IMG/VR virus record: IMGVR_UViG_3300046747_000361
Length of the DNA stretch: 62,133 bases
Origin: a virus
Direction: 5' to 3' (one strand)
The translations under genes were made by a program, and so were the position numbers. Position 1 is the first letter of the stretch, and every line of letters begins with the position of its first letter. Of the stretch, positions 6,309-60,727 are shown one piece after another. Below the pieces are notes generated by a model, which ran no database searches, was not told the origin of the DNA, and saw nothing but the letters and a program-made list of their open reading frames with translations.

Positions 6309-6519
6309 ACTTGCGCTGGAACACGCTATCTTTGCAGGGGTAGAACTCGCCTTCGGTACCTTCGATGAGCCAGTCGCCCTTGCGGATTCGTAAGGGTCCC
6401 TCGAGCGTCTGCACGTAATACTCGTTCTCGAGATCGTCGTACTCGATCGCAGGATGTTCGAAGGCATCGAGGAACTGTGCAGCTCGGATCTTCACCGGCT
6501 TGCTTTGATAAGTGTCCAT
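6289..6519 (-). CDS. hypothetical protein
   Basis: ORF track. The start codon abuts the tRNA 3' end. Confidence 0.55.
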   Translation of the reverse strand: MDTYQSKPVKIRAAQFLDAFEHPAIEYDDLENEYYVQTLEGPLRIRKGDWLIEGTEGEFYPCKDSVFQRKYEKAIP

Positions 6520-6594
6520 GGCACAGCAGGCAGGACTCGAACCTGCAACCTTCCGATTTGGAATCGGGCGCTCTACCAGTTGAGCTACTGCTAT
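6519..6594 (-). tRNA. tRNA-Trp (anticodon CCA), CCA end encoded
   Basis: Hand fold of the minus strand: acceptor AUAGCAG/CUGCUGU, D arm GCUC-AACUGGUA-GAGC, anticodon loop UUCCAAA, T arm GCAGG-UUCGAGU-CCUGC, discriminator G, CCA. Confidence 0.85.
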
Positions 6595-48801: not shown

Positions 48802-49152
48802 TCAGGTTTCTTGAGTAGTGCCTGCTTCAACGCCGCTCGTCTCACCCGAGTCAGCACTTTCCGCTCGGTCTTCTTCAGGTACTTGCGTGGACGTCGTCTG
48901 GGCATACAGTGATTCTAGCAGCTGGTTCTCATGCTCTTGAATGGCGAGCTGCGCGAGCAAGCACTTGCGCTCCTGGCGTAGTACATAGGTCTCGTAATCC
49001 GCGCGAGTCTCGGCCGATCGTACTTGCGCTACAAGCTGCTTGTTCATGGCGCGCCCCCAGGCCCCAACGTTATACAGCCAGCGGGCAACTCGATAGTCGA
49101 GGGCATCATCCGCTTGAGTTCTTGCGATTTGTGCGGGTAGAGCGAAGTACAT
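48802..49152 (-). CDS. hypothetical protein
   Basis: ORF track. Confidence 0.5.
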   Translation of the reverse strand: MYFALPAQIARTQADDALDYRVARWLYNVGAWGRAMNKQLVAQVRSAETRADYETYVLRQERKCLLAQLAIQEHENQLLESLYAQTTSTQVPEEDRAESADSGETSGVEAGTTQET

Positions 49153-49155
49153 AAA

Positions 49156-49189
49156 GAAAAAGCCCGCGCAGTTATTAGCTACACGGGCT
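49156..49189 (-). terminator. intrinsic terminator closing the Ro / tRNA-like transcription unit
   Basis: Minus strand AGCCCG-17 nt-CGGGCU followed by UUUUU. Confidence 0.5.
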
Positions 49190-49240
49190 GACGTAACATG
49201 GTCGGCGTCACTGACGAGGAAACTGCAGACACTTGGTTTT

Positions 49241-49284
49241 TACTGTTGGCTAGCCGCTCGCCTACAAGCCGGATTCGAACCGGG
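49241..49284 (-). ncRNA. third, degenerate permuted tRNA-like module
   Basis: T arm CCCGG-UUCGAAU-CCGGC, then UUGUAGG - 11-nt loop - CCAACAG (5 WC + 1 GU) and UA. No convincing D arm. Confidence 0.3.
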
Positions 49285-49337
49285 TACACAGTTTGGATTT
49301 ATGTAGTGCCTAATGCAAAATTCAGTGGTGGTGCCGG

Positions 49338-49409
49338 TAGCGGGTGTTGGATTCGAACCAACGGCCTCTTGGTTATGAGCCAAGCGAGATGCCACTTCTC
49401 CAACCCGCA
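49338..49409 (-). tRNA. tRNA-Met/Ile2-type (anticodon CAT) with U1-U72 mismatch
   Basis: Hand fold: UGCGGGU-UG-GAGA-AGUGGCA-UCUC-G-CUUGG-CUCAUAA-CCAAG-AGGCC-GUUGG-UUCGAAU-CCAAC-ACCCGCU-A. No encoded CCA. Confidence 0.8.
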
Positions 49410-49421
49410 ATAGTGAGAGTG

Positions 49422-49487
49422 TTACCAGCGAGTAGTCGCTCGAGACTTGTTCATGTAAAAAATGTAGTCCCGAACTGGATCTGGTAA
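49422..49487 (-). ncRNA. short stem-enclosed RNA (possible YrlB-like short Y RNA)
   Basis: Helix UUACCAG (49487..49481) / CUGGUAA (49428..49422) resembles the GUUGAC/GUCAAC helix of the two larger modules. It is followed by the same ...CUCUCACU motif. Confidence 0.25.
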
Positions 49488-49489
49488 CC

Positions 49490-49637
49490 GTGAGAGTGAG
49501 CTGTTGACGAGTAATCGCTGATACAACTACGGCGTTCTACCACTGAACTATACCCCAAAACATCGAGGTAGTTGGATTCGAACCAACGACTTCCGGCTCC
49601 AAATGCGATGTAGTACCAACTGAAATTCAACAGCGAA
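49490..49637 (-). ncRNA. Y RNA-like RNA 2 with circularly permuted tRNA-like core (49534..49587)
   Basis: Order: T arm (GUUGG-UUCGAAU-CCAAC), closed acceptor (UACCUCG-AUGUUU-UGGGGUA, 5 WC + 2 GU), U8A9, D arm (GUUC-AGUGGUA-GAAC). Enclosed by the 8-bp helix GCUGUUGA/UCAACAGC. Confidence 0.45.
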
Positions 49638-49644
49638 AAGGGTG

Positions 49645-49851
49645 CCACCGACGAGTGAGCGTTGACAGTATTTTTTGGAGCTCTACCAACTGAGCTACGT
49701 CGCAACTTGCGAAACAACGGCTGGGCTCGAACCAGCGACCGCCCCATTAGCAGTGGATGTAATGCCAACTAGAAATTCGGTAGCGTAAAGACTGTGACTG
49801 ACTGCTATGCCTGACAGAAAACGGGGGTGTTTGTTGTCAACAGCCAGTCAC
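49645..49851 (-). ncRNA. Y RNA-like RNA 1 with circularly permuted tRNA-like core (49680..49736)
   Basis: Order: T arm (GCUGG-UUCGAGC-CCAGC), closed acceptor (CGUUGUU-UCGCAAGU-UGCGACG), U8A9, D arm (GCUC-AGUUGGUA-GAGC). Enclosed by the helix GGCUGUUGACA/UGUCAACGCUC with a C-C mismatch. Confidence 0.45.
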
Positions 49852-49858
49852 CCGATAC

Positions 49859-51556
49859 TTATAGCGCCAGAGCCTCTATCTTTGCAACCCAATTCTTTAC
49901 GTTGCCTGACAAAAACTCCGACACGACTTCGAACACAGAATCACTAAAGCCGCCCACGTTGAGACGGTCAGGTGCACTCGTCGCTTGTGCCGAACTCATC
50001 GCTGCAATGTCGATGCACACGAGCTTGGCGTGTGGCGCGCGCTTCTTGAGCTTGGCCCATTCGGCCATCATCCCCGTCGTGTTGCTGTAGTAGCTGCCGG
50101 CCCACGATTCGTTGTCGCTCACGAAGATCACGACGTCAGGGTTGAGCCCGCGCTTGTTGAGCTCGATGAGGGGCAACTCGCACTGAGTGCCGCCCCCGCC
50201 CAGCTTCGCCAGCTGCTCTGCGAAGTTCATCACCGTCATGTTCTTTTGCGCCTCGGCGATGAAGCAACGGGTGTCGAAGGGCAACACGATCGACTTCTTC
50301 GACCTCTTCATGAACGCAGCTGTGAACAACGCCGCTGCGTCTACATATCGCACCTTCGTCGTTGCGCCCTTGCGAACGCCCGTAATCGGGCTGTTCATCG
50401 ACCCCGACACGTCGAGACAGATCGCGACGTTCGCGTCGAGGAAGGGCACGTTCTCAAGCGCGTGCTCCATCGCGTCATGAAGTGCCTGGACGATGAGCTC
50501 GGGCATCGTCTCCCCCGAGGGCGGCGTGAACTGCCAGGGCTGGGTCTTGGTCTCCTGCACGGCCAAGTAGGCCGACAAGATCTGGTAGGGGAAGGTCTTC
50601 GCCCGCTGTACGAGCTCCTTGTCGCGAAGCCGGTCGGCGATGAGCTCGACCATCGCGGGCTTCTCGAGCACGCCATGACGACGAAACGTGTTCAAATTCT
50701 TGACAGTCATCGTCCAGGACGCGCGAGCCGCGACCTCCGCCCATTCGTCATTCGACAGTCCGAGCGCATCTAGGAGCCTGAAATCAACGTCGGGCACAGC
50801 CCCGGTACGCGTCCGCTTGAACTCTTCGTACTGCTTGATGGTGTCGGGGAGAAGGTCTGCATTGTACCTCGTGACCGTGACAGACTCGCCATCGAGCGTG
50901 TACGGTAGGTCGAACTGCCGCTGACGCGCAATGATGGTGTTGAGGAGGGCCTTGTCTCGGGGCTTGCAGACCCGAACCAGATCGCCCGTGAGGTAGCCAT
51001 AGAGGGCACGACGAGCCGGGTCGTTCGGCTCGGGTCGCAGGCGCCGGATGACATACGCGAGGCTTGGATCTTCGCCGATACTGTCACGCAGGAGGGCCAT
51101 CGGGTGCCTGCGATTGAGCCAATCCTCGCAGAGGCGCCGGGGCTGGCTCCCGAAGTTCTTGCGACCCGTCACGCCAGAGCGGATGATCTGCACGAAGTTT
51201 CGAAGCATCTTGCCGTTGTCGATCACATGAGGGAACGCGCGACCGAACCACTGCGGGGTGTGTCGAGCAGCAAGCACGGCCAGCAGGTACGCCGGCATGT
51301 CCTTGAGCTTGCCCTGTTGCCGCGCATACGCAGCACACTTGGCGAGGAACTCATCGCTGACGCCCTCGGTGAGCTTCTTGACGTCGTCAAGTTGCTCAGT
51401 GGCTGCTGTGTAGTAGGTACTGCCGAAAAACCCAGTGGCTGCATACTGGGCGAGGGCCTCTTTGTTGGAGAGCGCGTAAGCGGCGCCCCCTGCCTTGTTT
51501 TTCACGACCTGTGGCGATAGAAGGGACTTGTCCACGATGCCCCCATCGTGGGACAC
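49859..51556 (-). CDS. rsr: Ro60-related protein (TROVE domain + vWA/MIDAS domain)
   Basis: N-terminal VKNKAGGAAYALSNKEALAQYAATGFFGSTYY (TROVE signature). C-terminal VAICLDVSGSMNSP (MIDAS DxSxS). 565 aa. Confidence 0.85.
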   Translation of the reverse strand: MSHDGGIVDKSLLSPQVVKNKAGGAAYALSNKEALAQYAATGFFGSTYYTAATEQLDDVKKLTEGVSDEFLAKCAAYARQQGKLKDMPAYLLAVLAARHTPQWFGRAFPHVIDNGKMLRNFVQIIRSGVTGRKNFGSQPRRLCEDWLNRRHPMALLRDSIGEDPSLAYVIRRLRPEPNDPARRALYGYLTGDLVRVCKPRDKALLNTIIARQRQFDLPYTLDGESVTVTRYNADLLPDTIKQYEEFKRTRTGAVPDVDFRLLDALGLSNDEWAEVAARASWTMTVKNLNTFRRHGVLEKPAMVELIADRLRDKELVQRAKTFPYQILSAYLAVQETKTQPWQFTPPSGETMPELIVQALHDAMEHALENVPFLDANVAICLDVSGSMNSPITGVRKGATTKVRYVDAAALFTAAFMKRSKKSIVLPFDTRCFIAEAQKNMTVMNFAEQLAKLGGGGTQCELPLIELNKRGLNPDVVIFVSDNESWAGSYYSNTTGMMAEWAKLKKRAPHAKLVCIDIAAMSSAQATSAPDRLNVGGFSDSVFEVVSEFLSGNVKNWVAKIEALAL

Positions 51557-51624
51557 CTACAGAGTGCGCGCAATCTTTTTCGTATGGGTTCCCACAGAAA
51601 AGAAATTCGGTAAAGTCACACCTC

Positions 51625-54025: not shown

Positions 54026-54242
54026 GCTCTGGCCCTTCGGCGACGACACACGCCGAGTCGTCATCGCTGAGGCTGAGATCTGGAACGACGGCAACCATCC
54101 TCATCGCCCTCTCTTCGGTGCGTACAAGGGCGTGTTCCACACGACCGGTGCCAAGACGCTGTACCTTCAGGTCAAGGACCACGAGCGAGTGCTAGGAGCG
54201 TGGTCGCTGCTGGGCAAGTTCCTTTCAAGCCACGTGCCGTAG
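54006..54242 (+). CDS. hypothetical protein
   Basis: GTG 54006; 3' end overlaps the convergent recombinase gene by 18 nt. Confidence 0.4.
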   Translation: MLKITIELWPFGDDTRRVVIAEAEIWNDGNHPHRPLFGAYKGVFHTTGAKTLYLQVKDHERVLGAWSLLGKFLSSHVP

Positions 54243-55907
54243 GGGTACGCGCAGATGCACAACGGGAACGTCCTCTGGGCGGATAACCGACCACAGGTCT
54301 TTCCCGTCTGTGCTCCTCGGCGGGCGGCGAGCGTCACAGTCGGGATCGCCCAAGAGTGCCGCTGGGCTGACTTGAGCTGTCAAGCCCTCACGCGAAAGCT
54401 GCATTTGCCCGACTAGCAGCGTCTGCAGGACTTTCCGCGCCAGTTGCGGTTCCGTTGAAAACGCGTCCACAAGCTGAGTCACTTGGGCCTGTGCTAGCGC
54501 CTCGAGTTCGTCGAGGCTCGACAGGGCAAGTTCCGCAGCAGCAGGGGCCACGGCTAGCTGTTGCTCAACCGCTTTGAGACGCGCGTTACGTTCCGTGATG
54601 GCAGTCACCAGGGCATCGGCGCTGTCAGTCGCCGCGAGAGCTGCAGCGAGGCGGCCTAGCTCTTGCTTGAGCTTCTTCGCCTCGAGCTCGAGGACCGCTC
54701 GTTCATCGGGCGCCTTGTCAATACGTTTCGCGAGAATCTCACGTAGCATGCCAAAACATGAGCTCACCACCGAGGGTGCAAGTGCGTTCTGCACAGCAAG
54801 AGCCAACTGCCCGTCAACCCCCTTCATGTCGACGATCGCATTGTTCGTGCATGCAGCTTTGCCGTGATCCCTATAGCGACCGCAGATGTACGAGAGGTTG
54901 TCGCGCTTGCTGCGATAAATGCGCTTGCTCCCGTAAATGGGGCCGCCACAGGTCGCACACCGAGCGAGCCCGACGAGCAAGTACTTGGGCGCGTGGCCCT
55001 TACGGCTAACCGCATTTCCGTATCGAGGGTTTCGAGCGAGCCGCGCTGCAACCGCGTCCCACAAATCCTGAGAGATGATAGCCGGGATGGGATTGACCAC
55101 GTGCTCAGACGCATCGAGACGTACGCGTACCTTCGTACCTCCCCGGTACATGTCCTGCGTCTTTCCACGAACGAGCCGTCCGATATAACGCTCTCGTGTG
55201 AGCAGTCCACGCACCGTTTGCCTCGACCACAGCGCCGCTGATTGTTCACCGCGACGATTGGGGGGTGCTATGTGCTGTGCGTTGAGCTCGTGCGCGATCT
55301 CCCGCAGACCTGCGCCATTAGCGTAGGACGAGAAGATTCGCCGCACAATCAGCGCTTCATCCTCTCGCACAACAAACTGCTTGTCGATCGTCTGGTACCC
55401 GTACGGAGCACCGCAAGTGGCAAGACCTTGTTTTGCTTTGTCTTGCAGGTGCTCGCGTGTACGGTCGCTTGTCGTCTCCCGTTCGGCTTCGTCCTTGTAT
55501 CCAAGAACGTGGACGATCAACCGATCCTGTGCCGTGGCCAGCTCGACGACTTGCTTTGTGCGATAATAGACGACTTGGCAACCGCACTCGCGCAACTCTT
55601 GGAGAAGCGCTGCGGTTCTGACCATGTCTCCGCCAAGTCGGCTGCTGTCTCGAACAACTAGAACCTTGAACTCGCCCCGTTTGGCGGCGACCACAAGTTT
55701 GTTCAGGCCATGACGCTTGACGAATTCGGCGCGGGAAATGCCGTCGTCTGCGATCTCAAGTACGACCTTGTATTCCTGTTCAGCACAAAAAGCTGTTCCG
55801 CCGTTGTGCTGGACGTCGAGAGAGTCTTCTTGCCCCTCGTCTTTGCTACGTCGCCCGTACAGGCAAGCTAGCGTCCCTGGCGGCGGAAGAAGGTGTGCTG
55901 CTCTCAT
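54225..55907 (-). CDS. large serine recombinase (integrase)
   Basis: LYGRRSKDEGQEDSLDVQ (Y-x-R-x-S), VLVVRDSSRLGGD, recombinase domain, zinc ribbon CATCGG...CGRYRDHGKAAC, C-terminal coiled coil. Confidence 0.85.
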   Translation of the reverse strand: MRAAHLLPPPGTLACLYGRRSKDEGQEDSLDVQHNGGTAFCAEQEYKVVLEIADDGISRAEFVKRHGLNKLVVAAKRGEFKVLVVRDSSRLGGDMVRTAALLQELRECGCQVVYYRTKQVVELATAQDRLIVHVLGYKDEAERETTSDRTREHLQDKAKQGLATCGAPYGYQTIDKQFVVREDEALIVRRIFSSYANGAGLREIAHELNAQHIAPPNRRGEQSAALWSRQTVRGLLTRERYIGRLVRGKTQDMYRGGTKVRVRLDASEHVVNPIPAIISQDLWDAVAARLARNPRYGNAVSRKGHAPKYLLVGLARCATCGGPIYGSKRIYRSKRDNLSYICGRYRDHGKAACTNNAIVDMKGVDGQLALAVQNALAPSVVSSCFGMLREILAKRIDKAPDERAVLELEAKKLKQELGRLAAALAATDSADALVTAITERNARLKAVEQQLAVAPAAAELALSSLDELEALAQAQVTQLVDAFSTEPQLARKVLQTLLVGQMQLSREGLTAQVSPAALLGDPDCDARRPPRSTDGKDLWSVIRPEDVPVVHLRVPLRHVA

Positions 55908-56058: not shown

Positions 56059-56231
56059 ATCAGTTTCTTGCCCACGCCGATAGGTGCCGGCAACTTCCCA
56101 CGCGAATGCCTGAGCCGAATCGCGGCGGGGCTCGTCTTGAGCAACGCCGCGAGTTCATTGACTGTCAGCAGCTCAGGGAGCCGGGGCTGCGCTTCCAACT
56201 TCGCAAGTCGATCGAGTATTTCCTGGATCAT
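56019..56231 (-). CDS. AlpA/Xis-type (MerR-like) HTH DNA-binding protein, excisionase candidate
   Basis: LLTVNELAALLKTSPAAIRLRHSRGKLPAPIGVGKKLMWRASDVAGWL. Confidence 0.55.
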   Translation of the reverse strand: MIQEILDRLAKLEAQPRLPELLTVNELAALLKTSPAAIRLRHSRGKLPAPIGVGKKLMWRASDVAGWLAR

Positions 56232-57321
56232 AACTCATGCTCGGCATCTTCGCGATCGCAGCCTTGAGGGTCTTGGACGCAGCGCGCCCGTAGACCTGGC
56301 GGACCATCGTGATGTCCTCGTGCCCTAACAAATCGGCACAATCCTCGAAACTCACACCAGCATTACGCATCAGACTACAGAACGTTCGGCGAAGGTCGTT
56401 GAACGTGAGCCTTGCCGGTAACGTCTCGTCGAGGTCGGCGTCAGCTGCTACTAACTTGGCTCTGGCACGCTTCCAAGCAGCGTTGATGTCGCGATTACCG
56501 CTATGCCACTCACTGAAACCGTCCGTGCGTCGCGTCAGTACCGAGACCATCACATCGTTCAGGGGCAAAACACGCTTGGCGCCTGTCGTCTTGAGCGTGA
56601 TCCTGTCGAGCTCGTCGACGTAGAGCTCACGCTTGGTCAGGTTCACACGGCCGCGAGTAATCGTGAGCAGCTCACGGCGACGCAAGCCCGTATTGACGTA
56701 GGCTAGAACGTCGTCGCGGCGGGTCGGGTCGAGCTCGTCAAGCAACGCGAAAATGTGCACGACTTCCTCAAGCCACGAGTCACCAGGCGTATAGAAGTGC
56801 TTACTGTTCACGAACCCAGCAACCTTGTATTTGCTTACGTCGTAGCCGGCGAGGCGTAGAGCTTGCCTGAGCACACGATGTTCCTTCTGGATCGTGTGTC
56901 GGTCTGCGCCCTCGCCGAGACGTGCGATCGTGTAAGCATCAAGATTGATGTCGGCGACGTTACTCGGCAATAACCGTAAGAGATGCGCCGCTCTGTCCGT
57001 GTGGAAGCGCACAGTGTTCGGGCGCGCGTTGCTGAGTACGTCGTGACCGGCGAGCAACGCGAACGCACCAGCAAGGGTGCAGGGGCCTTTTACAGGCTTC
57101 GCAACAGGACCCGCGGCGCGTTCACGTTCGATCGTCTTGGCCGCATTGAGTGCAGCTTCAAAGTCAGTCTGATGTGTGGTCGTCTCGTATCTTACACCCT
57201 GGTAGTCGTAACCCCAGAATGTCCAGACCTTACAACCTTTTCGCTTTCGCAACCGTTTTTTTAAAGGGCTTCTCTTTTCCACGAGGTTGAATCTGAGTGA
57301 TTGTGGAAGCGTCATCAACAT
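56173..57321 (-). CDS. tyrosine recombinase (phage integrase family)
   Basis: TGLRRRELLTI (Arg I), FNDLRRTFCS (H/x-x-x-R), LLGHEDITMVRQVYG (His, catalytic Tyr). Start uncertain (57321/57315 or later). Confidence 0.85.
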   Translation of the reverse strand: MLMTLPQSLRFNLVEKRSPLKKRLRKRKGCKVWTFWGYDYQGVRYETTTHQTDFEAALNAAKTIERERAAGPVAKPVKGPCTLAGAFALLAGHDVLSNARPNTVRFHTDRAAHLLRLLPSNVADINLDAYTIARLGEGADRHTIQKEHRVLRQALRLAGYDVSKYKVAGFVNSKHFYTPGDSWLEEVVHIFALLDELDPTRRDDVLAYVNTGLRRRELLTITRGRVNLTKRELYVDELDRITLKTTGAKRVLPLNDVMVSVLTRRTDGFSEWHSGNRDINAAWKRARAKLVAADADLDETLPARLTFNDLRRTFCSLMRNAGVSFEDCADLLGHEDITMVRQVYGRAASKTLKAAIAKMPSMSYDPGNTRSTCEVGSAAPAP

Positions 57322-57865
57322 GACCGTCCAGGATCGCCAGAACATCCGTGTAATTCTGAGCGACGAACGCGGCGAAGTTTGAGAACTTCGTATTCCACGG
57401 CTGCAGGTAGAGCACGCCGCGTTCGGGCGTCTTCTCCATGTTCTCCCACTTGTCGTCAATCAGCCAATCGCCCGCGATCAAATCCTTGTCGTGCGTGAAC
57501 ACGATTCGATAGTTGCGCCGATTGAGGAAGTGATCGAGCACTCCGTAACGCGCCTCTACCCAGTGATCGAGGCCCCGCCAAGGCGCAGTTGTGAATACGA
57601 CCTTGTTCTCAAACCCCAGATGCTCGACGAACGACTGTGCTTGCGGGTAGAACGGGATGTGGTACCCGATGCGATCCTTACGGACGAGCATCTTGTTGAT
57701 GAACTCCCATTCACTCTTCGTGAGTTCCATCGCATCCTTGAAGTCGTAAGACTTCCACGACTCGGGCGGTGGCACCTTCCGTGCGAGCATGCGCTGCACG
57801 AACTTGTGTAGCGTCGCGGCGAGGTTGAGAACTACGCCGTCGCAATCAAGCAGGATTGTTTTCAT
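57230..57865 (-). CDS. 5'(3')-deoxyribonucleotidase (HAD superfamily, NT5C-like)
   Basis: ILLDCDGVVLN (DxDxV motif I), TTAP, WLIDDK. Confidence 0.65.
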   Translation of the reverse strand: MKTILLDCDGVVLNLAATLHKFVQRMLARKVPPPESWKSYDFKDAMELTKSEWEFINKMLVRKDRIGYHIPFYPQAQSFVEHLGFENKVVFTTAPWRGLDHWVEARYGVLDHFLNRRNYRIVFTHDKDLIAGDWLIDDKWENMEKTPERGVLYLQPWNTKFSNFAAFVAQNYTDVLAILDGHVDDASTITQIQPRGKEKPFKKTVAKAKRL

Positions 57866-59322: not shown

Positions 59323-59431
59323 CGCGGTAAGTCACAGGCTCGTCGTCGAAATAGTGCTCTACGGGGTAAACGTGCATCCCGTAGAGATCCTTGAACGCGT
59401 CGCTGAGAGGCATCGTGTCCCAAAACGCCAT
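59207..59431 (-). CDS. hypothetical protein
   Basis: ORF track; overlaps the nuclease 5' end. Confidence 0.4.
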   Translation of the reverse strand: MAFWDTMPLSDAFKDLYGMHVYPVEHYFDDEPVTYRDDSGIPEWLLQDNATYFRELHRVMDDVPAPLGVRVPRR

Positions 59432-59916
59432 TACAGGTATGCTCCTAGTTTTGTATCGACACCGGCACAGTTATAGCCAAGCAGAACCATTGGCACCGGA
59501 AACACTTGTGTGTAGCCCACGAACGTAACTGGATTGAGTTCAAGTACGAAGCCGACTTGCTTGGCCGCGTCTCGAGCCGTCCTCCACCACGTACGGTGGG
59601 AACGTGCCGGTGCGAGGACGATACTGCTGCGATAAAGCGAGGCTTCCATGAGCGCTTTCGCGAGCCACTTCTTGAGGTACTTATAGGGCGGGTTGCAGAA
59701 CGTACCGTTAGGCCATGGGTCGAGCAGCCCGTCCCCATGTGACCAGCCTTGCGGTCGAACGAACCCTGACAGGTCAGATGCAGGGCACGGGTCGAACGTA
59801 ATCTGACCGCCGAACACTTCACGTGCGAAGTCAGCAATCACTTCGGGTGTTAGTATCTCTTGTTGACGGTTCTGCCGCTTACCGGTCGCGAAGCCGTCCA
59901 TCGCGTTCCATGTCAT
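59431..59916 (-). CDS. DNA N6-adenine methyltransferase (phage Dam-like family)
   Basis: FCNPPYKYLKKW (NPPY motif), size about 160 aa. Confidence 0.7.
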   Translation of the reverse strand: MTWNAMDGFATGKRQNRQQEILTPEVIADFAREVFGGQITFDPCPASDLSGFVRPQGWSHGDGLLDPWPNGTFCNPPYKYLKKWLAKALMEASLYRSSIVLAPARSHRTWWRTARDAAKQVGFVLELNPVTFVGYTQVFPVPMVLLGYNCAGVDTKLGAYL

Positions 59917-60134
59917 GTTATTGCGTCAAGCTCGTCCCGCGCGTCCTGCAACTCTTGCTTGAGTTGTTCCACGACTGCGAGTGCCTCATTGAGGTGCACT
60001 TTTATGTCCAGTTCGGCCGCCTTTTCAGCGTCCGATTCAATCCCCGCCTGCGCTGCTGTGATGGTCATTTCGAGGACCACTATTTGCGCCTCGAGTACTG
60101 CGATGCGATCCTTAAACCATTGTGTCGTTGTCAT
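59913..60134 (-). CDS. hypothetical coiled-coil protein
   Basis: ORF track. Confidence 0.5.
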   Translation of the reverse strand: MTTTQWFKDRIAVLEAQIVVLEMTITAAQAGIESDAEKAAELDIKVHLNEALAVVEQLKQELQDARDELDAIT

Positions 60135-60727
60135 TTGCTCTTACTGTCCTCGATCGTGTAATGGCGGGGCTTCACGTCCCCATACAAAGTGAATAGATTC
60201 TTCGCGACATTTTCCGCGTTCGAGAACAGTTCATCAAGCTTGTTCAAGCTGGGCGGGCGGTCATCACGCAGTACTCCCCGAAACTCAGCATCGAGCAGAA
60301 TGCCGAGACACGCGCGCGCCGATGCGAGGTGATGCACTTGTGTCACTGGATCACGTTGCTGGCCGAAGAACCATTTGAACGTGTGCCTTGCAGCAGCAGC
60401 GATGTATACAGACGCACGCACGCCCTCGAGCGTCCAGTTGTTCGAGCCGTACTTGAGCACGCCCTCAAGCATCGCCAGTGCCTCTTCGACGAGTGCTGCG
60501 ACTGGTATTGCGTGAAGGGGCGCGCGCGTTGTGCCCGCGATGTCCTTCGGGTTTGAACTCTTCTTGGCTGTTAGCTCGGGAATTGGCTCACCCTCCGGCA
60601 CCAGCGCCATGATCAGTGAGTTCTTCTTCGGGGCGGGCTGGTTGGTGTGATGGTAGAAGAAGGCTTCGTCGTAGCTATCGACCTCGGTGCCTGAGCAGTC
60701 ACCGCACGCGCAATAGAATTTGGCCAT
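60131..60727 (-). CDS. dATP/dGTP pyrophosphohydrolase-like domain protein (DUF5664-type)
   Basis: PLHAIPVAALVEEALAMLEGVLKYGSNNWTLEG...YIAAAARHTFKWFFG...HHLASARACLGILLD. Confidence 0.5.
   Translation of the reverse strand: MAKFYCACGDCSGTEVDSYDEAFFYHHTNQPAPKKNSLIMALVPEGEPIPELTAKKSSNPKDIAGTTRAPLHAIPVAALVEEALAMLEGVLKYGSNNWTLEGVRASVYIAAAARHTFKWFFGQQRDPVTQVHHLASARACLGILLDAEFRGVLRDDRPPSLNKLDELFSNAENVAKNLFTLYGDVKPRHYTIEDSKSK

What the first reader, a model, noticed from the sequence alone, without database searches (positions are those of the whole stretch)
49200..51556. Phage-encoded Ro60 (TROVE+vWA) orthologue followed by a dense tRNA-like RNA cluster
The 565-aa ORF has the TROVE N-terminal signature and a C-terminal vWA MIDAS motif. 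The 660 nt immediately downstream on the same strand contain no ORF. They hold four T-loop consensus sequences (GGUUCGAAUCC or GGUUCGAGCC), two canonical D arms and one canonical tRNA, and they end at a terminator. Bacterial Ro orthologues are known to be encoded next to their Y RNA partners, and YrlA-type Y RNAs mimic tRNA. A Ro-Y RNA module in a phage could be used to remodel host RNA decay or tRNA metabolism during infection.
Basis: partly seen in the sequence, partly recalled or inferred. Interest (0 to 1): 0.8.

Follow-up and report, generated by a model that had tools for sequence, protein, structure and literature searches.

The report
Phage Ro60 gene with Y-RNA array
An uncultured ~62-kb temperate phage carries a Ro60 RNA-binding protein gene followed by four tRNA-mimicking "Y RNA" partner modules and one real initiator-like tRNA; this is a new, unusually elaborate example of a system already described in bacteria and some phages.

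Summary
The minus-strand ORF 49859-51556 is a genuine Ro60: it hits Pfam vWA_Ro60 and TROVE, keeps an intact MIDAS motif, and its AlphaFold model matches only Ro60 structures at the top of the PDB. The ~700 nt downstream form an ordered array: a post-stop hairpin, two YrlA-type Y RNAs (T arm, closed acceptor-like stem, D arm), one short hairpin Y RNA, an initiator-like tRNA-Met, a fourth Y module lacking the acceptor-like stem, and an intrinsic terminator. All four Y modules share an 8-bp closing stem, an internal loop and a second stem, with compensatory changes. A covariance model built on relatives finds the two modules that Rfam misses. Eleven distinct related metagenomic loci (Ro60 53-97% identical), mostly on phage-like contigs, carry 2-6 such modules in shuffled order, often with tRNA-Met or tRNA-Tyr between them. 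Phage Ro60 with Y RNAs was reported in 2014 (22 phages) and tested biochemically in 2025 (Thermus phage phiLo), so this is a new member of a known kind. The likely mechanism is Ro60-Y RNA particles that engage host PNPase or tRNA-binding enzymes; this is inferred, not shown. Host and expression timing are unknown.

The parts
49859..51556 (-). Ro60 (TROVE + vWA/MIDAS) gene. 565 aa from the GTG at 51556; the conserved start is more likely the GTG at 51535 (558 aa).
   Evidence: ORF. Pfam vWA_Ro60 2.1e-17, TROVE 1.2e-08; phrog_850 RNA-binding protein, 1.3e-31. PDB 2nvo Rsr, 4.9e-22. AF2 pLDDT 82; the top 13 Foldseek PDB hits are all Ro60. MIDAS residues invariant; start-codon comparison.
51557..51624 (-). 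Short divergent intergenic region / Ro60 leader. It contains TACCGAATTT (51612-51603), identical to the 5' arm of Y module M1.
   Evidence: conserved blocks in relatives; the exact 10-mer occurs only here and in M1; the covariance model finds no full Y module here; no sigma-70 consensus promoter.
49794..49851 (-). Conserved hairpin without a U tract, directly after the Ro60 stop codon. Possibly a processing site or an mRNA 3'-end stabiliser (inferred).
   Evidence: -26.1 kcal/mol, z = -3.6; present in L001, L003, L007, L008, L011, L014 and L015 with compensating changes in the stem; absent in L012 and L013.
49644..49784 (-). Y module M1, YrlA type. Layout: closing stem S1 (8 bp), internal loop, stem S2 (7 bp), small hairpin, T arm, closed acceptor-like stem (6 bp), D arm.
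   Evidence: Rfam YrlA 30.0 bits, E 3.3e-04 in a local search; fold; consensus structure and covariation; model R1 131 bits (this sequence was in the training set).
49500..49634 (-). Y module M2, YrlA type, with a full 7-bp acceptor-like stem closed by a loop.
   Evidence: Rfam YrlA 45.8 bits, E 9e-09.. R1 123.7 bits (training set). The acceptor-like pairing was read from the sequence.
49421..49488 (-). Y module M3, short hairpin type (YrlB-like). It has S1 and an extended S2 and no tRNA-like head.
   Evidence: -23.6 kcal/mol, z = -4.2, 0 of 200 shuffles as stable. R1 35.3 bits, E 4.5e-09; this sequence was not in the training set; homologous modules in L001, L003, L007, L008 and L011-L014.
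49336..49409 (-). tRNA-Met (CAT) with initiator-like features: U1-U72 mismatch, A11:U24, G30-G31:C39-C40.
   Evidence: 62.7 bits; conserved in six relatives with compensatory changes in the anticodon and T stems. The similarity to E. coli tRNAfMet uses a sequence quoted from memory.
49207..49329 (-). Y module M4, variant type. It has S1 (6 bp plus a possible GGC/GCC extension), S2, a T arm, and a 3-bp D-like arm (GGC-GAGCGGCUA-GCC). It has no acceptor-like stem.
   Evidence: R1 36.6 bits, E 2e-09; not in the training set; the head is conserved in L012 4643-4761 and L013 4664-4784 (60.6 bits each) under different S1 stems; not detected by Rfam.
49152..49189 (-). Intrinsic terminator ending the operon: 11-bp stem with 7 G-C pairs, 7-nt loop, T tract.
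   Evidence: terminator scan.: -20.9 kcal/mol, z = -4.4; a nearly identical element closes the arrays of L007, L008 and L012-L014; the other arrays (L001, L003, L011, L015) also end in a terminator-like hairpin of different sequence.

Best explanation
This is a phage-borne Ro60-Y RNA operon.

Shown by sequence and structure analysis:
- The gene encodes a ring-type Ro60 protein with an intact vWA/MIDAS domain.
- Immediately downstream on the same strand lie four Y-RNA-like modules and one tRNA-Met. They are packed head to tail with 6-11-nt, mostly pyrimidine-rich linkers and are closed by one intrinsic terminator.
- Every module has the same foot: an 8-bp closing stem, an asymmetric internal loop with an invariant 5' AU and 3' G, a second 7-9-bp stem, and a conserved ACUACAU box.
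- The heads differ. Two are circularly permuted tRNA mimics (T arm, closed acceptor-like stem, D arm), one is a plain hairpin, and one has T and D-like arms only.

Inferred:
- The operon is made as one transcript from a promoter in the 70-90-nt divergent region upstream of Ro60.
- The RNAs are released by host tRNA-processing and other RNases. The embedded tRNA and the 7-bp acceptor-like stem of M2 could offer RNase P/Z sites.
- Ro60 binds the shared foot of each module.
- The different heads tether Ro60 to host factors: PNPase, as in the bacterial RYPER complex and as shown in vitro for Thermus phage phiLo, and/or enzymes that recognise the tRNA elbow. This would redirect or dampen host RNA decay and quality control during infection or lysogeny.
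For: Ro60 identity.

YrlA matches. The same family is seen in relatives at 39-62 bits. It passes the Rfam gathering score beside cellular Ro60 homologues at 69-83 bits, so there is a continuum to canonical YrlA.

Consensus structure of 21 YrlA-type modules: 30 pairs, 21 of them with compensatory changes.

Shared closing stem across 35 modules of all types: all 8 pairs show double changes and 96% of cells are paired.

Family covariance model: it detects the untrained modules M3 and M4 at E about 1e-9. It finds nothing else in the 62-kb window at E <= 0.01; the only other listed match is 12.1 bits, E 0.99, over the tRNA-Trp.

Conserved synteny: Ro60, then array, then terminator, in 11 distinct related loci whose gene callers left a same-strand gene-free gap of about 0.2-0.9 kb there.

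One terminator.

Literature: Chen 2014 (PMC4201824) reports Y RNAs next to Ro60, a tRNA-like domain, co-processing of YrlA and YrlB from one precursor, and RNase P cleavage of a 7-bp acceptor stem. PMC12135203 shows that phage phiRo60 binds two phage Y-like RNAs and host PNPase. bioRxiv 10.1101/312249 gives the YrlA tRNA-like fold.
Against: - No expression, processing or binding data exist for this phage, and its host is unknown.
- The modules fall below the Rfam YrlA gathering score.
- The published GNCGAAN0-1G motif is only partly kept: CGAA in M1, UGAA in M2 and M4, CAGA in M3. Those positions are base-paired and covary, so Ro60 recognition may differ here or be unequal among modules.
- No promoter was recognised.
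- MFE z-scores of the long modules alone are unremarkable (-0.5 to -1.6). The structural support comes from covariation.
- Modules were partly selected by requiring the closing stem, so the 96% pairing figure is partly circular.
- The window has no PNPase or RtcB-type gene, so any effector must come from the host. Only the larger ORFs were screened.
Confidence: 0.8

Rival explanations
1. Lysogenic-conversion ('moron') reading. The same Ro60-Y RNA operon is expressed from the prophage for the benefit of the lysogen, for example stress or UV tolerance, rRNA turnover in starvation, or exclusion of other phages. It would not be a takeover tool during lytic growth.
For: The operon is a self-contained unit with its own terminator. 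It lies between the lysis genes and the recombinase/early region, and it is transcribed opposite to both neighbouring gene blocks. In relatives, an integrase lies within about 2-2.5 kb of Ro60 (L013, L016). As I recall the literature, bacterial Rsr is a stress-response factor.
Against: There are no expression data. The published phage case (PMC12135203) is discussed there as hijacking of host PNPase during infection. Position alone does not tell timing.
Confidence: 0.3
2. The RNA cluster is an ordinary phage tRNA gene cluster with decayed tRNA pseudogenes, and it sits next to Ro60 by coincidence.
For: A real tRNA-Met lies in the array. Relatives also carry tRNA-Tyr. Many phages carry tRNA clusters (one search hits are phage tRNA-Met genes).
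Against: The T arm precedes the D arm, with a closed acceptor-like stem between them. This is the YrlA topology, not that of a decayed tRNA. All modules share a non-tRNA foot with covarying stems. M3 has no tRNA element at all yet keeps the foot. Linkage to Ro60 holds from 40% to 97% protein identity and in cellular genomes.
Confidence: 0.03
3. The tRNA-like elements are integration-related: attP-type copies of host tRNA 3' halves used by the phage integrases.
For: The phage encodes a serine recombinase and a tyrosine integrase. Temperate phages often integrate into tRNA genes.
Against: The elements lie 4.4-7 kb from the recombinase genes. There are four of them, each complete and structured, and their stems covary. 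Relatives with different integrases keep the same array. No matching prophage junction was found in GTDB representative genomes.
Confidence: 0.03
4. Decoy or adaptor-library reading. The varied tRNA-mimic heads are the active parts. They would soak up or redirect host tRNA-directed enzymes, such as modification enzymes, RNase P, CCA-adding enzyme or tRNA-targeting defence nucleases. Ro60 would serve mainly to stabilise them, and the embedded initiator-like tRNA would replace a host tRNA that is targeted.
For: Module content turns over quickly between close relatives: the window and L007 share 97% Ro60 identity but have different arrays. There are several head types, including a tRNA-ordered head in relatives. 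Real tRNAs are interleaved in phage and cellular Ro60 loci. YrlA is a substrate of tRNA-modifying enzymes, and M. smegmatis YrlA is cut by RNase P (PMC4201824).
Against: The heads lack an anticodon loop, so they cannot mimic substrates of anticodon nucleases. There is no experimental link. Shuffling could simply reflect recombination between repeats.
Confidence: 0.12

Closest known systems
Bacterial Rsr (Ro60) with YrlA/YrlB Y RNAs (Salmonella Typhimurium, Mycobacterium smegmatis; Chen et al. 2013/2014, Rfam RF02553)
   Same: A Ro60 gene has Y RNAs on the same strand within 1 kb. At least one Y RNA carries a permuted tRNA-like head (T arm, closed acceptor-like stem, D arm), and a second type is a plain hairpin. 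Several Y RNAs are made from one locus, and in M. smegmatis from one precursor (PMC4201824).
   Different: Here there are four modules plus a real tRNA in one tight array. Rfam scores are 30-46 bits against a gathering score of 69. The GNCGAA motif is degenerate. There is no rtcBA, RtcR or sigma-54 context. M4 is a head type without the acceptor-like stem.
Mycobacteriophage and other actinophage Ro60 ('Ro-like RNA binding protein') with YrlA-like RNAs (22 phages in Chen et al. 2014)
   Different: Protein identity to Streptomyces, Gordonia and Arthrobacter phage Ro60 is only 22-25%. Those are large 75-195-kb actinophages. This is a ~62-kb temperate phage with a P22-type portal and an unknown host. 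I could not check how many Y RNAs those phages carry.
Thermus phage phiLo phiRo60 with Yrl1/Yrl2 (NAR 2025, PMC12135203; PDB 9KOP, 9L5Y)
   Same: Phage Ro60 plus neighbouring Y-like RNAs. The predicted fold matches 9l5y with TM 0.66/0.78. In that work, binding of host PNPase was shown in vitro, which is the model I adopt.
   Different: In phiLo the two RNAs lie upstream of the gene, and no tRNA-like heads or embedded tRNA are described for them. Sequence identity is about 18%.
Myxococcus phage Mx1 TROVE-domain protein (OR576727.2)
   Same: It is the closest Ro60 in an isolated phage: 40% identity over 98% of the query. A tRNA-Gly and a peptidyl-tRNA hydrolase gene lie within about 1 kb downstream.
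   Different: No convincing Y module was found with my model in the 7.6 kb around it (best 16.8 bits). It is a 170-kb phage.

Membership tests
Ro60 / TROVE protein family | TROVE (HEAT-repeat ring) domain recognisable by profile | tested here: met
   Pfam TROVE 35 bits against a cut-off of 23, E 1.2e-08, but over residues 269-340 only. PDB 2nvo aligns over residues 13-216 and 281-553.
Ro60 / TROVE protein family | C-terminal Ro60-type vWA domain with MIDAS motif (DxSxS...T...D) | tested here: met
   Pfam vWA_Ro60 64 bits, E 2.1e-17. D375/S377/S379, T450 and D474 (558-aa numbering) are invariant in 32 homologues.
Ro60 / TROVE protein family | Overall fold like solved Ro60 structures (ring plus vWA) | tested here: met
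   AF2 model has pLDDT 82.3 and pTM 0.79. The top 13 Foldseek PDB hits are all Ro60 (human, Xenopus, Deinococcus, phage phiLo), with E 1e-15 to 2e-18 over about 550-580 columns.
Ro60 / TROVE protein family | Binds Y RNA on the outer ring surface and misfolded RNA ends in the central hole | not testable with these tools
   This needs EMSA, RIP or a structure.
YrlA (Rfam RF02553) Y RNA | Score at or above the Rfam gathering threshold (69 bits) | tested here: not met
   M2 scores 45.8 bits and M1 30.0 bits; M3 and M4 are not reported. Local E-values of 9e-09 and 3.3e-04 are nevertheless significant.
YrlA (Rfam RF02553) Y RNA | Encoded within about 4 kb of a Ro60 gene, on the same strand | tested here: met
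   All modules lie 75-650 nt downstream of the Ro60 stop on the minus strand.
YrlA (Rfam RF02553) Y RNA | Permuted tRNA-like domain: T arm, closed acceptor-like stem-loop, D arm, with conserved T-loop and D-loop bases | tested here: met
   M1 and M2 match the full model (positions 1-114) with all three arms. The consensus of 21 relatives keeps the T, acceptor-like and D stems with compensatory changes. M4 keeps only the T arm and a D-like arm. M3 has none of them, like YrlB.
YrlA (Rfam RF02553) Y RNA | 5' motif GNCGAAN0-1G thought to contact Ro60 (Chen 2014) | tested here: inconclusive
   M1 has ACCGAAU (CGAA core kept, first G lost). M2 has GUUGAAU. M4 has ACUGAAU. M3 has ACCAGAU. The variable positions pair with the 3' strand and covary. 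The AU that follows is invariant.
YrlA (Rfam RF02553) Y RNA | 5' and 3' ends pair to form the Ro60-binding stem | tested here: met
   There is an 8-bp closing stem (6 bp in M4). Across 35 modules, all 8 pairs show double changes. This is partly circular, because pairing was used to delimit the modules. The CM consensus agrees.
YrlA (Rfam RF02553) Y RNA | Stable RNA bound and stabilised by Ro60 in vivo | not testable with these tools
   There are no expression or binding data for this uncultured phage.
Canonical tRNA (element at 49409-49336) | Cloverleaf with anticodon, scored by tRNA models | tested here: met
   ARAGORN calls tRNA-Met CAT. Rfam tRNA gives 62.7 bits against a threshold of 29. 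Compensatory changes are seen among seven phages.
Bacterial initiator tRNA-fMet | 1:72 mismatch, purine11:pyrimidine24, three G-C pairs at the bottom of the anticodon stem | tested here: inconclusive
   A U1-U72 mismatch (not C-A) and A11:U24 are present. Only two of the three G-C pairs are there (G30:C40 and G31:C39; position 29:41 is U:A). These were read. The defining rules are from my own knowledge.

The most novel reading that the evidence does not exclude
In this phage lineage the Ro60 partner RNAs form a fast-shuffling cassette array. A constant Ro60-binding foot carries interchangeable heads: permuted tRNA mimics, a head without the acceptor-like stem, plain hairpins and, in close relatives, a tRNA-ordered mimic (acceptor-like hairpin, D arm, capped mini 'anticodon' stem, T arm) that would be a previously undescribed Y RNA class. 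Real tRNAs, including an initiator-like tRNA-Met, are interleaved. The array would act as an adaptor or decoy library aimed at several host tRNA-handling or RNA-decay enzymes at once. The repeat of the module 5' box in the Ro60 leader would allow autoregulation.
Probability: 0.15. Interest if true: 0.7.

Novelty: new member of a known kind. Interest (0 to 1): 0.38.

Why it matters
Ro60-Y RNA particles are conserved from bacteria to humans, where Ro60 is a lupus/Sjogren autoantigen. What the tRNA-like domain of bacterial Y RNAs is for remains open.

This phage family offers a natural experiment. One Ro60 protein is paired with two to six Y modules. Their binding foot is constant, while their heads differ and are reshuffled between genomes that are otherwise 85-97% identical in Ro60.

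The family also links genuine tRNA genes physically to Y RNAs. That fits the published idea that YrlA arose from tandem pre-tRNAs.

The family extends phage-borne Ro60 systems beyond actinophages and Thermus phages to a widespread group of uncultured ~60-kb temperate phages.

It does not reveal a new kind of system.

Tried and rejected
- Nucleotide search of the locus against 50,697 phage records found only short matches: phage tRNA-Met genes and about 135 bp of the Ro60 gene in two unannotated fragment records. No related phage genome was found.
- A scan of GTDB representative genomes with Ro60 found no prophage copy, only cellular homologues at 42-52% identity. A portal-protein search returned only unnamed metagenomic proteins. 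The host therefore stays unknown.
- The sigma-70 promoter scan found nothing around the operon. The conserved TGGGAA...TTGCGC blocks upstream of Ro60 do not have sigma-54 spacing (my reading).
- I tested whether the Ro60 leader is a fifth, degenerate Y module because it shares TACCGAATTT with M1. The covariance model gives 2.6 bits, and I saw no covarying 3' partner in relatives. I rejected it as a module and kept it as an unexplained repeat.
- The Myxococcus phage Mx1 locus, the closest isolated phage, gave no convincing Y module with my model.
- The more distant IMG/VR relatives L004-L006 (39% identity) showed no YrlA or tRNA near Ro60. L004 also gave nothing with model R1. I did not pursue them further.
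- Pfam scans of 40 ORFs found no PNPase, RtcB, RNA ligase or kinase genes. Small ORFs were not all screened.
- The supplementary tables of Chen 2014 and two reviews were not available. I therefore could not check how many Y RNAs per phage were already catalogued.
Full report

Yes. The minus-strand ORF 49859..51556 (565 aa, GTG start) is in the mechanical ORF list. It matches Pfam vWA_Ro60 (E 2.1e-17) and TROVE (E 1.2e-08), both above their curated cut-offs. It also matches PHROG 850 'RNA-binding protein' (E 1.3e-31) and the Deinococcus Rsr structure 2nvo (E 4.9e-22, aligned over residues 13-216 and 281-553).

An AlphaFold2 model built on 32 homologues has mean pLDDT 82 and pTM 0.79. Its 13 best PDB matches are all Ro60 proteins: human, Xenopus, Deinococcus and Thermus phage phiLo. 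They align over about 550-580 columns. The MIDAS residues DxSxS, T and D are invariant among the 32 homologues.

The T-loop pattern GGTTCRANYCC occurs four times on the minus strand between 49271 and 49733. Only 0.35 matches are expected in the whole window.

ARAGORN and Rfam both call a tRNA-Met(CAT) at 49409-49336. A strong intrinsic terminator lies at 49189-49161.

Two details need correcting:
- The stretch does hold mechanical TTG-started ORFs of 105 and 56 aa on the same strand. They run across the structured modules, and gene callers placed no same-strand gene at that position in any relative.
- The conserved start codon is probably the GTG at 51535 (558 aa), because L012 and L015 lack the upstream in-frame start.

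**2. What is there?**

A sensitive Rfam scan of the 1.1-kb region finds two full-length YrlA matches: 49633-49498 (45.8 bits, E 9e-09) and 49783-49642 (30.0 bits, E 3.3e-04). Both are below the gathering score of 69.

Reading the sequence and comparing relatives shows that the whole stretch is an ordered array:
- post-stop hairpin, 49851-49794
- M1, 49784-49644
- M2, 49634-49500
- M3, 49488-49421
- tRNA-Met, 49409-49336
- M4, 49329-49207
- terminator

Four of the six linkers are 9-11 nt and pyrimidine-rich. The tRNA-M4 linker is 6 nt and the M4-terminator linker is 17 nt.

All four modules share a common foot. It has an 8-bp closing stem (6 bp in M4), an internal loop with an invariant 5' AU and 3' G, a 7-9-bp second stem, and an ACUACAU box.

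The heads differ:
- M1 and M2 have a T arm, a closed acceptor-like stem (6 bp in M1, a full 7 bp in M2) and a D arm. This is the circularly permuted tRNA-like head that defines YrlA (PMC4201824; bioRxiv 10.1101/312249).
- M3 is a plain hairpin, like YrlB.
- M4 keeps a T arm and a 3-bp D-like arm but has no acceptor-like stem.

**3. Evidence from relatives**

The Ro60 protein has metagenomic relatives at 53-97% identity, many of them on contigs of 40-65 kb. I fetched eleven distinct loci: L001, L003, L007, L008 and L011-L016. Every one has a same-strand gene-free gap after Ro60, about 0.2-0.9 kb long. The gap is filled with 2-6 such modules.

Twenty-one YrlA-type modules align to a consensus of S1, S2, T, acceptor-like and D stems. 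Of 30 predicted pairs, 21 show compensatory changes.

Across 35 distinct modules of all types, every one of the 8 closing-stem pairs shows double changes and 96% of cells are paired. Slid controls give 28-56%. This figure is partly circular, because I used pairing to delimit the modules.

A covariance model built on the 21 modules recovers the untrained M4 (36.6 bits, E 2e-09) and M3 (35.3 bits, E 4.5e-09). It finds nothing else in the 62-kb window at E <= 0.01. The only other listed match is 12.1 bits, E 0.99, over the tRNA-Trp.

The same model finds two or more modules beside each of the cellular Ro60 genes of Cypionkella, Ruegeria, an Akkermansia MAG, an alphaproteobacterial MAG and a Pyrinomonadaceae contig. 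In three of those loci Rfam YrlA passes its gathering score (69-83 bits). The phage modules are therefore divergent members of a continuum that reaches canonical YrlA.

**4. Array dynamics**

Module order and content change quickly between relatives.
- L007 (Ro60 97% identical): YrlA type, a tRNA-ordered head, tRNA-Tyr, short, tRNA-Met, a variant.
- L008 (88%): three YrlA types plus a tRNA-ordered head, a short module and tRNA-Met.
- L001 and L003 (70%): two short modules followed by three long ones, with no tRNA.

The head of M4 recurs in L012 and L013 under a different closing stem. The closing stem of M4 recurs in L007, L008 and L014 over different heads. This pattern indicates recombination between modules.

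The tRNA-Met is present in seven of the eleven distinct phage loci. It shows compensatory changes in its anticodon and T stems and always keeps a U1-U72 mismatch and A11:U24. These are initiator-like traits by my own knowledge of tRNA identity rules. Only two of the three hallmark G-C pairs are present.

**5. Context**

The window is a complete-looking phage genome, and the longest contig carrying the protein is 62,133 bp. The annotated genes are:
- P22-type portal, endolysin (amidase), serine recombinase
- tyrosine integrase, VapE-like primase/helicase, helicases, PD-(D/E)XK nuclease, Dam-like methylase, a dATP/dGTP diphosphohydrolase N-domain protein
- NT5C nucleotidase
- a second tRNA, tRNA-Trp, at 6519-6594

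The Ro60 operon is transcribed divergently from a block of small plus-strand genes. It lies between the lysis genes and the recombinases. No PNPase or RNA-repair gene was found among the 40 ORFs screened.

No close relative exists among 50,697 deposited phage genomes or as a prophage in GTDB representatives. A portal search returned only unnamed metagenomic proteins. The host is therefore unknown. The nearest cellular Ro60 proteins (about 45-47% identity) are from Acidobacteriota/Pyrinomonadaceae, which is weak evidence for host.

**6. How it most likely works**

Shown here:
- a Ro60 gene
- four structured RNAs with a shared, covarying foot and tRNA-like heads
- one tRNA
- one terminator
- conservation of the arrangement across relatives

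Inferred:
- The unit is one transcript.
- Host tRNA-processing and other RNases cut it into individual RNAs. M. smegmatis YrlA and YrlB come from one precursor, and its 7-bp acceptor stem is an RNase P substrate (PMC4201824). M2 has such a stem.
- Ro60 binds the foot.
- The heads tether Ro60 to host proteins. The best candidate is PNPase, by analogy with the Deinococcus and Salmonella complexes. The in-vitro result that phage phiLo Ro60 and its Y-like RNAs bind host PNPase and attenuate it points the same way (PMC12135203).

Whether the operon acts during lytic growth or in the lysogen cannot be told from sequence. Its moron-like layout keeps the second option open.

**7. Comparison with what is known, and novelty**

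Chen et al. 2014 already reported YrlA-like RNAs next to Ro60 in 254 bacteria and 22 bacteriophages. 'Ro-like RNA binding protein' is a routine annotation in Streptomyces, Gordonia and Arthrobacter phages. A phage Ro60-Y RNA-PNPase complex was studied in 2025.

The finding is therefore a new member of a known kind. The following may be new:
- the size and mosaic nature of the array
- the head type without an acceptor-like stem (M4)
- the tRNA-ordered head seen in relatives (Rfam tRNA model positions 4-67 for three of the four such modules and the whole model for the L001 one, 37-43 bits, inside a Y foot)
- the regular interleaving of genuine tRNAs with Y modules, also seen beside cellular Ro60 genes

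I could not see the 2014 supplementary tables, so I cannot say how much of this was already catalogued.

**8. Verdict**

This is a known kind of system in a new phage lineage with an unusually elaborate RNA array. Interest is moderate.

Noticed in passing
window 51603-51612 (minus strand), in the Ro60 leader / divergent promoter region 51557-51624: The 10-mer TACCGAATTT (TTACCGAATTTCT in context) is identical to the 5' arm of Y module M1. It occurs exactly only at these two places in the window. The block is conserved upstream of Ro60 in L007 and L011-L013. It could be a lone Ro60-binding strand for autoregulation, a promoter element or a recombination scar. The covariance model sees no full module there.
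   Followed up: partly
L007 4405-4541, L008 4507-4641, L011 4497-4633, L001 4945-5083 (relatives; not present in the window): These Y modules have a head in normal tRNA order: an acceptor-like hairpin, a D arm, a short stem capped by a GAAA-type loop where the anticodon arm would be, then a T arm. Rfam's tRNA model matches them at 37-43 bits (model positions 4-67 for three of them, the whole model 1-71 for L001). This is a different permutation from YrlA and may be an undescribed Y RNA class.
   Followed up: partly
L017 5172-5247, L021 5058-5133, L022 391-2574; also L007 4558-4644 and L014 3888-3973: Genuine tRNA genes are interleaved with Y modules beside Ro60 genes elsewhere too. There is a tRNA-Gln between Y modules in Cypionkella and in an alphaproteobacterial MAG. 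Nine tRNAs plus Y modules lie upstream of Ro60 on a Pyrinomonadaceae contig. tRNA-Tyr occurs in two phage relatives. This suggests a general tRNA/Y-RNA co-transcription or common origin.
   Followed up: partly
window 49336-49409 (minus strand): The embedded tRNA-Met has a U1-U72 mismatch, A11:U24 and two G-C pairs next to the anticodon loop. It resembles E. coli initiator tRNA as I recall its sequence. The encoded 3' end reads A-CC-G, so the terminal A of CCA is not encoded.
   Followed up: partly
window 49794-49851 (minus strand): A conserved 11-bp-stem hairpin without a U tract sits directly after the Ro60 stop codon. It has compensating stem changes in seven relatives and is missing in L012 and L013. 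Possibly an RNase III-type processing site or an mRNA 3' stabiliser.
   Followed up: partly
window 60131-60727 (-), 57230-57865 (-), 59431-59916 (-): There is a cluster of nucleotide-metabolism and DNA-modification genes: a dATP/dGTP diphosphohydrolase N-domain protein, an NT5C-type 5'-nucleotidase and a Dam-like methyltransferase. This hints at manipulation of the dNTP pool or a modified genome.
   Followed up: no
window 54225-55907 (-) and 56173-57459 (-): Two recombinases lie side by side: a large serine recombinase and a tyrosine integrase. Close relatives carry a tyrosine integrase near Ro60 instead (L013, L016).
   Followed up: no
window 6519-6594 (-): A second phage tRNA, tRNA-Trp (CCA), lies far from the Ro60 array. 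No Y module is next to it.
   Followed up: yes
L023 339-427 (Myxococcus phage Mx1, OR576727.2 about 54316-54404): A weak match to the Y-module model (16.8 bits, E 0.0024) lies inside an annotated 65-aa hypothetical CDS, 2.5 kb upstream of the Mx1 TROVE gene. A tRNA-Gly and a peptidyl-tRNA hydrolase gene follow the TROVE gene.
   Followed up: no
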